Of a stretch of 64,000 nucleotides of DNA, positions 7,230 to 44,981 are shown one piece after another (the stretch's first letter is position 1; every line of letters starts with the position of its first letter). This DNA comes from Promethearchaeota archaeon (lineage in GTDB: Archaea > Asgardarchaeota > Lokiarchaeia > Sigyniarchaeales > SOKP01). Under the pieces are notes generated by a model. That model was not told the origin of the DNA. It was given only the letters and a program-made list of their open reading frames with translations, and ran no database searches. The position numbers and the translations under genes were made by a program. The stretch covers positions 64,001-128,000 of the forward strand of contig JAHLWS010000073.1 of the NCBI GenBank assembly GCA_019057795.1, read 5' to 3'.

Positions 7230-7970
7230 ATGTGTCGTATGTTTTTTCAGTGTTCGCTTGAACCCTTTCAAATTGATTTTAAAATTTTAAAAAAATTTGT
7301 AGCCTCGTGCCATTGGCATTATTTAAGGAAGTATAATCTTTTTGGGCACCATGGATTGGGTTGGGGCTTCGCTTATATCTCTGAAGGTGACAACAAACTC
7401 GTAATAAAGCGAGATATAACTCAAATATACTACGCGGACTGGAAAAACCTCACTAAGATTAAAACTCGTTTCCTTTTAGTCCACGCGAGAAAAACCCTCC
7501 CTTGGAAAAAGAACTTTAGAGACGTACATCCTATAGATATTGGTGAGAAATACATCATAACTCATAATGGAATTATAAAAGGCTTTCCAGATAAAAAATT
7601 AAAAAACCCAAAATTGGAAAAAATTTATAGTAAAACTAACTTGGACACTCGAAAATATCTATGTGCTATTATTGACGAACTACAAGAAGGTAAAAGTTTA
7701 AAGAATACCTTGGAAACCCTTTTTAAAGAGATTGAGATAGGTGCTGGCGCGAACGCATTTCTATTTAATTCGCACACCTGCAATGTCATCACTAATCATA
7801 AAACTAATTTTAACGGCAGGCACCACACCTTATTTTTAAGAAAAAAACAAAAAGAAATCCTTGTAAGCACTACTCCCTTAACTGAGAATGCAAAAGAAAT
7901 TCCTAATTACTCTTTAATTCAAATTGATTTAAATAATCTAAACCTGAATGCTATGAAATTAGAATTTTAG
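7230..7970 (+). CDS. Class II glutamine amidotransferase (Ntn hydrolase) family protein
   Basis: N-terminal MCRM with nucleophile Cys2, GWGFAY, VHARK, HP, HNGII. Confidence 0.85.
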   Translation: MCRMFFQCSLEPFQIDFKILKKFVASCHWHYLRKYNLFGHHGLGWGFAYISEGDNKLVIKRDITQIYYADWKNLTKIKTRFLLVHARKTLPWKKNFRDVHPIDIGEKYIITHNGIIKGFPDKKLKNPKLEKIYSKTNLDTRKYLCAIIDELQEGKSLKNTLETLFKEIEIGAGANAFLFNSHTCNVITNHKTNFNGRHHTLFLRKKQKEILVSTTPLTENAKEIPNYSLIQIDLNNLNLNAMKLEF

Positions 7971-8025
7971 GTATAAATATATAATTTTAAATAAAAAAAA
8001 ATAAAAAAGGTTAATTATATCCTTT

Positions 8026-8374
8026 CTACTCTCCAGATTCTTCTTCAGCAGCTAATTCTTCCTCTAATTCTTCCAATGGAACGGGTGCCGGTGTTTAACT
8101 TGAATTCTGCGATATGCACGAATCCTGTAAGCATACTGTACCCGATCCATATAGCAATAATTGCTATTAATAATACCATAATCCAGAGTGGTAGAACTGT
8201 GAATAATCTCCAATCGAGCCAATCGATATTAAATATTCGGAAGACAGCGTCCCAATTTGGGTCCCCACCAAGAGTGCCAAACCATAAATCAACGACGCTT
8301 CCCAGAGTATAAACTACCGCGATAAGGATACCAAGGAGCATGACGATTGCGCCAATTATCTTATCTTTTGCCAT
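8026..8374 (-). CDS. Two-TM membrane protein (DPM2-like, 105 aa), spliced: exons 8374-8127 and 8095-8026
   Basis: Removing a 31-nt BHB insert gives ...WIGYSMLTTPAPVPLEELEEELAAEEESGE*, the C-terminus typical of this archaeal family (WIGYT.ATTPPP.PIEE.EEE). Exons 248+70=318 nt. Confidence 0.85.
8096..8126 (-). other. 31-nt BHB intron in a protein-coding gene
   Basis: Central helix GCTT/AAGT, bulges AC^A and TA^A, inner helix GGATTC/GAATTC, imperfect exonic outer helix; removal restores the frame. Confidence 0.85.
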
Positions 8375-8488
8375 TATCAATACCTTTGTTTTAAGTTTTT
8401 AGTATATTTTTTCAAGCACATTTACATTGCTTAATATTATTTTTAAAATTATATTAAATTAAAACCATTCGTTAAAGGACGAATTTTT

Positions 8489-8650
8489 ATGGATTACAAA
8501 ATCCTTAATGCCCTTAAAACTGGGCTTTCAGCTGATATTTGGCACCTCAAGCATTTTCGAACTCATAACGAAATTTTTTCTAACATTTATGAACCCAAAC
8601 CACTTTCTGATAGACTTAGAAAAGTACTCTTTAATTGTGATGTTTCATAA
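8489..8650 (+). CDS. Small hypothetical protein (53 aa)
   Basis: ATG...TAA ORF MDYKILNALKTGLSADIWHLKHF... with AAGGA upstream; lies between the DPM2-like gene and rbsK. Confidence 0.4.
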   Translation: MDYKILNALKTGLSADIWHLKHFRTHNEIFSNIYEPKPLSDRLRKVLFNCDVS

Positions 8651-8707
8651 ATTGATAATATAATGCGAAGAGAGTTCGAAAAATCGCGATTTTAAAGTGG
8701 TAAAATT

Positions 8708-44425: not shown

Positions 44426-44981
44426 TTACAGCTCCCCCTTTATCATGTCGTCATATTCTCCATTCTCAATCTTTTTCTGAATTACTCGCGGGTCCTCGCC
44501 TTCTATTGTGGCTCCAATTGACAACACTGTCCCTATTACGGTCTTTACAGCAGTTTTGAAGGTTTTATCTAAAAAGATATCTTTTTTAGCGTTAGTAACG
44601 TTAACTACCTGTTCAAGAGTTAAATCTCCAATTTTTTCCTCAGAACTATTCGAACTCCCTTTTTCAGCGCCTAATTCTTTTAAAAGTAGTGAAGCTGTAC
44701 TTGGCGTCTCTACGAATATCTCAAACTGTTTTGTCTCAGGATCGCATTCGATTCTAACGGGTACCGTTAAACCTTTAAAAAGCATGGTTTTTTCGTTAAC
44801 TGCGTCCACTACGTCCTTGATGTTTGCATAGGAAATCGATTCAATTTCCGTTTATGCCAGTAGGACCTACAGCGGGACCTTTACATAAATAAAGCGATTT
44901 GCTTTATGTAATAGGCGGTCCTCCGCTCGCAGATCCCCCTGTAACTAGTGCCTTAACAATGATTTTGTTTGTTTTACTCAT
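44426..44981 (-). CDS. rpl11: 50S ribosomal protein uL11, spliced: exons 44981-44911, 44880-44852, 44823-44426 (165 aa)
   Basis: Spliced product MSKTNKIIVKALVTGGSASGGPPIGPAVGPTGINIKDVVDAVNEKTMLFKGLTVPVRI...; exons 71+29+398=498 nt; GAGG SD; first gene of L11-L1-P0-P1. Confidence 0.93.
44824..44851 (-). other. rpl11 intron 2 (28 nt, BHB, frame-shifting)
   Basis: Perfect central helix GCAT/ATGC, bulges AA^A and AA^A, inner helix GGAAATTG/CGATTTCC, outer helix GTCCT..TG/CA...AGGAC. Confidence 0.88.
44881..44910 (-). other. rpl11 intron 1 (30 nt, BHB, contains in-frame TAA)
   Basis: Outer helix GGACC/GGTCC, central helix GCCT/ATGT (one mismatch), bulges AT^T and AA^A, inner helix ATAAAGC/GCTTTAT. 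Confidence 0.85.

What the first reader, a model, noticed from the sequence alone, without database searches (positions are those of the whole stretch)
8026..8374. Second protein-coding gene with a BHB intron (31 nt) in a small membrane protein
Seen: after ...WIGYSMLT the unspliced frame runs into an unrelated tail (GFVHIAEFKLNTG...), while the family-typical tail TPAPVPLEELEEELAAEEESGE* follows in a shifted frame. The intervening 31 nt (8126-8096) form a canonical BHB: helix GCTT/AAGT, bulges ACA and TAA, inner helix GGATTC/GAATTC. Cleavage at AC^A and TA^A gives CTT ACA ACA CCG (L-T-T-P). The unspliced mRNA still encodes a 111-aa protein with a basic C-tail, whereas the spliced form has an acidic tail. 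Inference: intron retention could yield two isoforms. This also recalls non-spliceosomal, frame-switching XBP1/HAC1 splicing, which uses tRNA ligases.
Basis: partly seen in the sequence, partly recalled or inferred. Interest (0 to 1): 0.9.

Follow-up and report, generated by a model that had tools for sequence, protein, structure and literature searches.

The report
tRNA-type intron in Asgard membrane-protein gene
A small, highly conserved membrane-protein gene of an Asgard (Loki-type) archaeon is interrupted by a 31-base insert shaped like a tRNA intron; comparison with about 100 relatives shows that the insert must be removed from the messenger RNA, a kind of splicing so far published for the coding region of only one archaeal gene.

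Summary
On the minus strand, exon 1 (8374-8127), a 31-nt insert (8126-8096) and exon 2 (8095-8026) join to give a 105-aa protein ending TTPAPVPLEELEEELAAEEESGE. That tail is nearly invariant in the family: 92 of the 120 best database relatives have it uninterrupted, and 28 are read-through products of an insert. The insert sits in a canonical bulge-helix-bulge (BHB): a 4-bp helix GCUU/AAGU, 3-nt bulges ACA and UAA, and a 6-bp inner helix. Sixteen distinct alleles carry an insert at this site (31, 32 or 44 nt). They keep the structure through compensatory changes. Their exon 2 evolves synonymously only in the spliced frame (602:80, against 5:631 and 1:662). Relatives carry BHB inserts at three further positions within 45 nt of the same gene. 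The genome encodes two EndA subunits and RtcB, and the gene is single-copy. No RNA evidence could be obtained: the only runs found were probably DNA and came from an intron-less relative. The two-isoform idea has no support. The protein is DPM2/PIG-P-like. The scan has reported the same kind of intron before, on this genome and on other Asgard genomes. In the papers I could search, only cbf5 of Crenarchaeota is reported to have such an intron in its coding region.

The parts
8026..8374 (-). Whole gene (pre-mRNA coding region) of a 105-aa DPM2/PIG-P-like two-helix membrane protein with an acidic C-terminal tail
   Evidence: The gene is single-copy in the genome.
8127..8374 (-). Exon 1: the ATG at 8374 to the second base of the Thr codon (AC^), encoding MAKDK...WIGYSML and T(1/2)
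   Evidence: It is 100% identical to P0001 and 82-95% identical to more than 100 relatives.
8096..8126 (-). 31-nt BHB intron (A GGAUUC G UGC AUAUC GCA GAAUUC AAGU UA)
   Evidence: It is absent from 92 of the 120 closest database relatives and is single-copy in the genome.
8026..8095 (-). Exon 2: the third base of the Thr codon, then TPAPVPLEELEEELAAEEESGE and the stop TAG at 8028-8026
   Evidence: Purifying selection acts in this frame only, among 15 intron-bearing alleles.
8129..8132 (-). 5' strand of the 4-bp central BHB helix (GCUU, exon 1)
   Evidence: It pairs with 8101-8098. Other alleles have GCUU/AAGC, GCUU/GAGC, GUUG/CAAC and GUUG/CGAU.
8098..8101 (-). 3' strand of the central helix (AAGU, 3' end of the intron)
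8126..8128 (-). 5' bulge ACA; predicted cut after the second base (AC^A)
   Evidence: Geometry script. It is unpaired in the minimum-free-energy structure and in the consensus structure.
8095..8097 (-). 3' bulge UAA; predicted cut after the second base (UA^A)
8102..8125 (-). Intron hairpin: inner helix GGAUUC/GAAUUC, then UGC/GCA closing the 5-nt loop AUAUC
   Evidence: All six inner pairs show compensatory changes across alleles.
8133..8150 (-). Exon-1 strand of the extended outer (exon-exon) helix: AUGGA, CGGGU and ACAGUAU
   Evidence: The pair at 8135/8092 is U-A in this window and C-G in 8 alleles; both changes are synonymous.
8076..8094 (-). Exon-2 strand of the extended outer helix: ACACCG, ACCCG and UCCAU
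   Evidence: Intron-bearing alleles form 12.4 of 16 exon-exon pairs, against 8.8 of 16 in intron-less alleles.

Best explanation
The 31 nt at 8126-8096 (minus strand) are an archaeal bulge-helix-bulge intron inside the coding region of a small DPM2/PIG-P-like membrane-protein gene.

Proposed mechanism:
1. The pre-mRNA folds so that the last bases of exon 1 (GCUU) pair with the last bases of the intron (AAGU).
2. The intron's own hairpin stacks on one side of this helix. A long, imperfect exon 1-exon 2 helix stacks on the other side and holds the two splice sites together.
3. The genome's two-subunit splicing endonuclease (EndA) cuts after the second base of each 3-nt bulge (AC^A and UA^A).
4. 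RtcB joins the exons. The mRNA then reads ...SMLTTPAPVPLEELEEELAAEEESGE*, a 105-aa product.

Shown here: the structure, its conservation through compensatory changes, selection on the spliced frame, and the presence of the enzymes' genes. Inferred: cleavage and ligation in the cell, the identity of the enzymes that do it, and circularisation of the excised intron.
For: 1. Intron-less orthologues: 92 of the 120 best relatives carry the predicted junction and tail without interruption, and 26 are read-through products of an insert at this site.
2. In every intron-bearing allele found (16 distinct sequences at this site; 31, 32 or 44 nt), one frame-restoring cut pair has the canonical geometry: a 4-bp helix flanked by two 3-nt bulges, each cut after the second base.
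3. Covariation: 63 of 64 central-helix cells are paired. There are double changes in 2 of the 4 central pairs, in all 6 inner pairs, and in one outer pair at synonymous sites. Overall 89% of cells are paired and the covariation score is 0.384, against 80% and 0.203 in 1000 shuffles; no shuffle reached the observed value. Sliding the 3' partner by 1-3 nt drops pairing from 82% to 23-44%. RNAalifold predicts the same structure unaided.
4. Exon 2 of intron-bearing alleles: variable columns by codon position are 3/3/19 in the spliced frame. Synonymous:non-synonymous codon differences are 602:80 in the spliced frame, against 5:631 and 1:662 in the other two frames.
5. Relatives carry BHB inserts at three further positions within 45 nt of the same gene. 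Each has the same geometry but unrelated helices: TCGA/TCGA after PLE in 7 sequences, CATG/CATG in the Leu codon, and GGGU/GCCU between Tyr and Ser. One of these inserts contains an in-frame TAG.
6. The genome has two EndA-domain genes (97.7 and 70.5 bits) and one RtcB gene (561 bits). Asgard EndA is reported to be the broad-specificity (alpha-beta)2 type (PMC5829648).
7. There is no second, uninterrupted copy of the gene in a genome scored as 100% complete.
8. In the same window, the ribosomal protein uL11 gene needs two inserts of 30 and 28 nt removed, and both have the same geometry.
Against: I found no direct RNA evidence. The four runs that held part of the stretch are Logan contigs, three of them 'probably DNA'. 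The only contig spanning the site comes from an intron-less relative, not from a spliced transcript.

The outer helix next to the 3' bulge has two A.C mismatches, so the motif is not perfect on the exon side.

In an organism with coupled transcription and translation, ribosomes would unfold a BHB that is built partly from codons. How splicing gets ahead of translation is unknown.

The alleles are related to one another, so the shuffle statistics overstate independence.
Confidence: 0.85

Rival explanations
1. The intron is a BHB intron, but splicing is partial or regulated. The cell would then make two functional isoforms: an acidic tail when the mRNA is spliced and a basic tail when it is unspliced.
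For: In the 31-nt alleles the unspliced frame stays open for 26 more codons and ends at the same TGA. The mechanism (endonuclease plus RtcB, with a frame switch in the tail) resembles XBP1 splicing.
Against: There is no selection on the read-through frame: synonymous:non-synonymous codon differences are 1:662 and 5:631. The apparent conservation of that tail is only the shadow of the conserved exon 2 read in another frame. The 32-nt alleles read through into a different, shorter tail, and one site-B allele has an in-frame TAG. Most species have no intron at all. No Ire1-type RNase domain was found, but the control search found none in any genome, so this says little.
Confidence: 0.08
2. The insert is not removed from the RNA. 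Instead the ribosome recodes, either by a +1 frameshift at UUA-A-ACA or by hopping from the ACA at 8128-8126 to the ACA at 8094-8092. The product would then carry a 10-residue insertion or lack one Thr.
For: Identical ACA codons flank the insert in this window. In the 31-nt alleles, reading the insert and then making a single +1 shift would reach the exon-2 frame.
Against: Each allele class would need a different event: 31 nt needs +1, while 32 and 44 nt need a different shift. The 30-nt in-frame inserts need no shift, yet they keep the BHB, and one of them has a stop codon. In the 32-nt alleles the landing codon is ACC or ACU, not ACA. The variation in the insert preserves base pairs, not codons. 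The TAA directly upstream of ACA in the exon-2 frame leaves no window for a shift other than at that one position.
Confidence: 0.04
3. The gene is a decaying pseudogene, or the insert is an assembly artefact. Alternatively, the true product is the 109-aa read-through protein and the acidic tail is not used in this lineage.
For: Gene callers annotate the 109-aa read-through ORF in many records.
Against: The same insert is present in independent assemblies from many samples. Exon 2 is under strong purifying selection in the spliced frame among the intron-bearing alleles themselves. The gene is single-copy and the family is nearly universal in Asgard genomes.
Confidence: 0.02

Closest known systems
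BHB intron in the cbf5 pre-mRNA of Crenarchaeota (Aeropyrum, Sulfolobus, Desulfurococcales; Watanabe 2002, Yoshinari 2006, Yokobori 2009 = PMC2738675)
   Same: It is an intron inside the coding region of an archaeal protein gene. It is flanked by a BHB-like motif that EndA cuts, and it shows lineage-specific presence and loss. The organisms have a hetero-oligomeric (alpha-beta)2 EndA of broad specificity.
   Different: The phylum (Asgard/Promethearchaeota) and the gene differ. Presence and absence alternate between nearly identical alleles (tree path lengths of about 0.01-0.04), rather than following one ancient gain with a few losses. Four intron positions lie within 45 nt of one gene. Splicing of cbf5 was shown experimentally; here it is inferred.
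Non-canonical tRNA introns of Asgard archaea (PMC11291895; bioRxiv 10.64898/2026.10.13.758758)
   Same: The same lineage, the same motif, and small inserts at many positions that were gained repeatedly at sites where a BHB can form. The same enzymes are presumed to act.
   Different: Those introns are in tRNA genes. [quoted passage not shown] In an mRNA the exon half of the motif must also encode protein, and here that requirement is met through synonymous codon choice.
BHB intron in the 5' UTR of HVO_1309 mRNA, Haloferax volcanii (PMC7714728)
   Same: An mRNA substrate of EndA outside tRNA and rRNA, with a short intron (46 nt).
   Different: That intron lies in an untranslated leader and does not affect the reading frame. 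That paper states that cbf5 was then the only other example of an mRNA intron.
HAC1/XBP1 unconventional splicing (Ire1 plus a tRNA ligase/RtcB)
   Same: It works in a similar way: a short non-spliceosomal intron (26 nt in XBP1), cut by a protein endonuclease and joined by a tRNA-type ligase, with a frame switch that replaces the C-terminal tail.
   Different: The cleavage signal there is a pair of Ire1 stem-loops, not a BHB. That splicing is stress-regulated and produces two functional proteins. Here I found no evidence of regulation, no selection on the unspliced tail and no Ire1 RNase domain (uninformative control).

Membership tests
Archaeal BHB (EndA-dependent) intron | [quoted passage not shown] | tested here: met
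   The helix is GCUU/AAGU with bulges ACA and UAA. The same geometry is found in all 16 alleles at this site (one has 3 of 4 central pairs) and at three other sites. RNAalifold's consensus agrees.
Archaeal BHB (EndA-dependent) intron | Flanking helices on both sides (h and h') | tested here: met
   The inner helix has 6 bp plus 3 bp. The outer helix is imperfect (4 of 6 positions paired) and is extended by two 5-bp exon-exon helices.
Archaeal BHB (EndA-dependent) intron | Cuts after the second base of each bulge give a functional mature RNA | tested here: met
   AC^A and UA^A give ACA ACA CCG, which encodes the TTP junction found in 92 uninterrupted relatives.
Archaeal BHB (EndA-dependent) intron | The structure, rather than the sequence, is conserved among homologues (compensatory changes) | tested here: met
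   9 of 26 pairs show double changes. None of 1000 shuffles reached the observed pairing or covariation.
Archaeal BHB (EndA-dependent) intron | The splicing endonuclease and the RNA ligase are encoded by the organism | tested here: met
   There are two PF01974 (EndA domain) genes on C69 and C74 and one PF01139 (RtcB) gene on C70.
Archaeal BHB (EndA-dependent) intron | Excision is seen in RNA (exon junction, circular intron) or cleavage is shown in vitro | not testable with these tools
   The runs found were contigs, three of them probably DNA. The only contig across the site is from an intron-less relative.
Programmed ribosomal frameshift or translational bypass | One recoding signal and one shift that explain all alleles | tested here: not met
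   Inserts of 30, 31, 32 and 44 nt, one of them with an in-frame stop, would each need a different event.
Ire1-type (HAC1/XBP1) unconventional splicing | Ire1 kinase-RNase and paired stem-loop cleavage sites | tested here: inconclusive
   PF06479 has no match in the genome, but it matched none of the control genomes either. The motif at the splice sites is a BHB, not Ire1 loops.
Group I / group II self-splicing intron or other Rfam family | A match to a catalytic RNA model | tested here: not met
   Nothing relevant in Rfam at 7800-8600. At 31 nt the insert is far too short for a catalytic intron.
DPM2 / PIG-P small membrane-protein family (the host gene) | A Pfam match above the gathering score | tested here: inconclusive
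   Close members score below the cut-off: PIG-P in 23 of 27 (best E 6e-5) and DPM2 in 22 of 27 (best E 0.011). Distant relatives reached with the family profile match PIG-P in 42 of 69 (best 2.3e-10) and DPM2 in 29 of 69 (best 1.7e-8). The fold is a generic two-helix transmembrane hairpin.

The most novel reading that the evidence does not exclude
The last 45 nt of the membrane-spanning part of this gene may be a hot spot where BHB micro-introns are gained, lost or exchanged on short time scales in Loki-type Asgard archaea.

The evidence that does not exclude this:
- Four intron positions lie within those 45 nt.
- At least 10 changes of state for one position are forced by well-supported branches of the gene tree.
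- Intron-bearing and intron-less alleles are sisters at tree path lengths of about 0.01-0.04.
- The exon flanks form a co-adapted haplotype.
- The 9-nt hairpin core GCAUUUCGC is shared between introns at two different positions.

Together with the uL11 introns in this window and the many candidates noted elsewhere in this genome, this would mean that endonuclease-type introns are an active, genome-wide feature of protein-coding genes in the closest archaeal relatives of eukaryotes.
Probability: 0.35. Interest if true: 0.9.

Novelty: new member of a known kind. Interest (0 to 1): 0.78.

Why it matters
Pre-mRNA splicing by the tRNA-splicing machinery has been reported for the coding region of only one archaeal gene, cbf5, in Crenarchaeota. 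PMC7714728 says so explicitly. The Asgard papers I could search treat tRNA introns only.

This case is well supported by comparative evidence and lies in the lineage closest to eukaryotes. It has intron-less and intron-bearing alleles side by side and several intron positions in one gene. That makes three questions directly testable:
- how protein-coding genes acquire and tolerate introns before a spliceosome exists;
- how splicing competes with coupled translation;
- how exon codon choice is bent to build a splice signal.

There is also a practical consequence. About a quarter of the database entries for this family (28 of the 120 best hits) are mis-annotated read-through proteins with a false basic tail. 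Gene callers will systematically truncate or split genes in these genomes.

Tried and rejected
- **RNA evidence.** The look-up of sequencing runs returned 8 runs, and I laid four on 7700-8700. Three are labelled RNA-Seq but are 'probably DNA', and all are contigs. The one contig across the site replaces 8096-8144 by 18 letters whose reverse complement, AGGATATTCAATGCTCAC, is the intron-less allele's exon sequence. It therefore comes from a relative and is not a spliced transcript. It says nothing for or against splicing.
- **Window-wide scan.** I scanned for BHB motifs whose removal joins ORFs. With relaxed criteria in this AT-rich DNA it gave 127 hits on the plus strand alone. That is too noisy to use.
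- **A possible mobile micro-intron family.** The intron has no other copy in the genome. The shared hairpin core GCAWWTCGC occurs 66 times, against 55-66 for control 9-mers, and none of the other occurrences has BHB geometry under a strict test. That test also misses the window's own intron because of a 1-nt asymmetry. There is no genome-wide enrichment.
- **tRNA introns.** aragorn's intron calls for this genome (18 tRNAs, 10 with 'introns', several implausible) were too unreliable to compare loops.
- **Protein identity by structure.** The AlphaFold model (pLDDT 70.6) is a transmembrane hairpin plus a C-terminal helix. Foldseek against the PDB gave nothing below E = 2.9. The PDB sequence profile search and NCBIfam gave nothing either.
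- **P0258/L100.** This looked like a further intron site but is explained by a single-base frameshift. I did not count it.
- **P0176.** This is the family's N-terminus fused to a GT2-like sequence at a contig end. I left it uninterpreted.

Full report
**What is in the sequence**

The gene lies on the minus strand. From the ATG at 8374 the frame reads MAKDK...WIGYSMLT. It then runs into GFVHIAEFKLNTGTRSIGRIRGRISC*, giving 109 aa, or 111 aa from an upstream TTG. If 8126-8096 (31 nt) is left out, the codons become CTT AC|A ACA CCG and the protein ends ...SMLTTPAPVPLEELEEELAAEEESGE* at TAG 8028-8026 (105 aa).

**The RNA structure**

RNAfold of 8075-8150 gives the following structure unaided (-22.7 kcal/mol, z = -2.98 against 200 shuffles):
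- a 4-bp helix GCUU/AAGU;
- a 3-nt bulge ACA on the 5' strand;
- an inner helix GGAUUC/GAAUUC extended by UGC/GCA around a 5-nt loop;
- unpaired UAA on the 3' strand;
- an imperfect exon-exon helix that continues as CGGGU/ACCCG and AUGGA/UCCAU.

This is the order found in tRNA introns: outer helix, 3' bulge, 4 bp, 5' bulge, inner helix. Cutting after the second base of each bulge gives exactly the frame-restoring junction. A motif of this quality (4/4 central pairs, 6/6 inner pairs, at least 4/6 outer pairs) occurs at about 1e-5 per position-and-length pair in the window and in its shuffles. Only two cut pairs restore the frame.

**The family**

A search with exon 1 found 384 relatives, all from Asgard archaea where a source names them (Promethearchaeota/Lokiarchaeota, Hermod-, Thor-). 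Among the best 120:
- 92 carry the tail TTPAPVPLEELEEELAAEE... without interruption;
- 26 are read-through products of an insert directly after SMLT;
- 2 are read-through products of an insert after PLE.

The acidic tail is therefore the family's real C-terminus. About a quarter of the database entries are mis-called.

**DNA of relatives**

I fetched three sets of loci:
- 76 species-level genomes;
- 14 metagenome contigs chosen only by exon sequences with a gap too long for an uninterrupted gene;
- 7 loci looked up by protein.

Sixteen distinct sequences carry an insert at the window's site, of 31, 32 or 44 nt. For each one I listed every cut pair that restores the family protein and scored the tRNA-type geometry. 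In every case one such pair has the 4-bp helix fully paired (3 of 4 in the 44-nt allele), flanked by two 3-nt bulges and an inner helix of 4-6 pairs. The central helix varies: GCUU/AAGU, GCUU/AAGC, GCUU/GAGC, GUUG/CAAC and GUUG/CGAU.

**Covariation**

On an alignment anchored at the cut sites:
- 63 of 64 central-helix cells pair;
- 2 central pairs, all 6 inner pairs and 1 outer pair show changes on both sides. The outer pair is U-A in the window and C-G in eight alleles, and both changes are synonymous (AGU/AGC Ser and ACA/ACG Thr);
- sliding the 3' partner by 1-3 nt drops pairing from 82% to 23-44%.

In a shuffle control over 14 pairs, observed pairing was 0.893 and covariation 0.384, against means of 0.797 and 0.203. 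No shuffle of 1000 reached the observed values. The alleles are related, so these numbers are not probabilities. RNAalifold on a plain MAFFT alignment predicts the same BHB on its own.

**Which frame is translated**

Among 15 distinct exon-2 sequences from intron-bearing alleles, variable columns fall 3/3/19 on codon positions 1/2/3 of the spliced frame. Synonymous:non-synonymous codon differences are 602:80 in that frame, against 5:631 and 1:662 in the other two. So in the very genomes that carry the insert, exon 2 is selected as TPAPVPLEELEE.... This requires that 31, 32 or 44 nt be skipped. It rules out a pseudogene and a functional basic tail, and it removes the support for a conserved second isoform.

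**More intron positions in the same gene**

Three further positions carry BHB inserts:
- After PLE (...CUCGAAG^), seven distinct inserts of 30-31 nt sit in a BHB whose central helix is UCGA/UCGA. Their inner helices are largely unrelated, one insert has an in-frame TAG, and two loci carry this intron together with a second one.
- A GC-richer lineage has a 31-nt insert one codon upstream of the window's site (UU^A, central helix CAUG/CAUG).
- Another locus has a 31-nt insert between the Tyr and Ser codons (central helix GGGU/GCCU).

That makes four positions within 45 nt, all with the same geometry. A recoding explanation would need a different event for each insert length. Removal at a BHB explains them all.

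**The machinery and the need for splicing**

The genome is 4.95 Mb in 87 contigs and is scored 100% complete. It has two EndA-domain genes of about 200 codons each and one RtcB gene. This fits the (alpha-beta)2 broad-specificity EndA reported for Asgard archaea (PMC5829648). The gene and the intron are each single-copy, so the organism has no uninterrupted copy. In the same window, the uL11 gene reads as a normal uL11 only after inserts of 30 nt (44910-44881) and 28 nt (44851-44824) are removed, and both have BHB geometry at exactly the frame-restoring cut. An essential gene in this organism therefore appears to depend on the same process.

**Distribution**

I built a gene tree from exon 1, leaving out its last 28 nt. 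The intron at the window's site is patchy: at least 10 changes of state are forced by well-supported branches. Intron-bearing and intron-less alleles are sisters at tree path lengths of about 0.01-0.04, for example the window and L083 against L003.

Around the intron the exons differ systematically between the two states: GGG UAC AGY AUG CUU against GGA UAU UCR AUG CUC, and ACR CCG GCA CCC against ACU CCA GCA CCN. Identity to the closest intron-less relative falls from 96% over most of exon 1 to about 75% within 20-30 nt of the site, and all of these changes are synonymous. Intron-bearing alleles form 12.4 of 16 possible exon-exon pairs, against 8.8 in intron-less alleles.

The exon flanks are thus co-adapted to the splice signal. 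The 3' segment appears to circulate as a haplotype with its own history. Whether this reflects recombination, repeated gain or repeated loss cannot be decided here.

**The protein**

The model is a two-helix transmembrane hairpin followed by a short acidic helix. Close members give sub-threshold Pfam matches to PIG-P and DPM2. Distant relatives found with the family profile (175 at E <= 1e-3) match PIG-P in 42 of 69 (best E 2.3e-10) and DPM2 in 29 of 69 (best E 1.7e-8). A protein language-model look-up pointed the same way. I read the protein as a DPM2/PIG-P-like small subunit of a dolichol-linked glycosyltransferase complex. This is tentative.

**What is missing**

No RNA evidence could be obtained. 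The runs holding part of the stretch were contigs, mostly probably DNA, and the only contig across the site is an intron-less relative. Cleavage, ligation and their efficiency are therefore inferred.

**Comparison with what is known**

The closest published case is the cbf5 intron of Crenarchaeota (PMC2738675). In 2020 it was still called the only BHB intron in an archaeal mRNA apart from a 5' UTR case in Haloferax (PMC7714728). Papers on Asgard introns in the searchable library treat tRNA genes only (PMC11291895; bioRxiv 10.64898/2026.10.13.758758). The library lacks most subscription journals, so an earlier report cannot be excluded.

This scan has noted the same kind of intron before, both on this genome and on other Asgard genomes. 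Those are unchecked leads, except for the uL11 case, which I tested here.

**Verdict**

[quoted passage not shown] It is a new member of a known but barely documented kind, with unusually rich comparative support.

Noticed in passing
window 44426-44981 (minus strand): The ribosomal protein uL11 gene reads as a normal uL11 (MSKTNKIIVKALVTGGSASGGPPIGPAVGPTGINIKDVVDAVNEKT...) only after inserts of 30 nt (44910-44881) and 28 nt (44851-44824) are removed. Both have BHB geometry exactly at the frame-restoring cut, with central helices GCCU/AUGU (3 of 4 pairs) and GCAU/AUGC (4 of 4).
   Followed up: partly
L098:86-454; L099:301-657; L017, L036, L062, L075, L095, L097 (3' end of the gene): The same gene carries BHB inserts at three other positions in other lineages: between the Tyr and Ser codons, inside the Leu codon, and after PLE. 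Two loci (L017, L098) carry two introns each.
   Followed up: yes
site-A introns (L081, L085, L087) and site-B introns (L095, L098): Introns at two different positions share the 9-nt hairpin core GCAUUUCGC. The first uL11 intron has GCAAAUCGC. This may reflect common descent or transposition within the gene, a functional loop, or chance. The core is not enriched genome-wide (66 occurrences, against 55-66 for control 9-mers).
   Followed up: partly
L036:928-1090 and L079 (site-B insert): The 30-nt in-frame insert ends with CCACTCGAA, the same 9 nt that end the upstream exon. This looks like a target-site duplication. Because TCGA is a palindrome, such a duplication would create the central BHB helix by itself. 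All site-B inserts repeat at least CGAA, and most repeat TCGAA.
   Followed up: no
window 8076-8150 compared with L001-L004: Synonymous divergence between the window and its closest intron-less relatives is concentrated within about 25 nt on either side of the intron site: about 75% identity there, against 92-96% in the rest of exon 1. It includes a switch of Ser codon family, AGU to UCA. In run X1, the contig from an intron-less relative shows the same mosaic: 1 mismatch in 84 nt of exon 1, against 11 in the 96 nt downstream.
   Followed up: partly
G000 whole genome: aragorn finds only 18 tRNA genes, 10 of them with called introns, in a genome scored as 100% complete. This agrees with reports that Asgard tRNA genes are heavily interrupted and are missed by standard tools.
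   Followed up: no
P0176 (109 aa): One database protein has the family's first 40 residues fused to a GT2 glycosyltransferase-like sequence (FEVLIVDGESNDGTQEII...). It may be an assembly chimera, or a hint at a link to a glycosyltransferase partner.
   Followed up: no
L021 (DATKTW010000178.1): A contig that carries this Asgard-specific gene, with a 32-nt intron, is filed under a 'Candidatus Nanopelagicaceae bacterium' MAG. It is probably a binning error.
   Followed up: no
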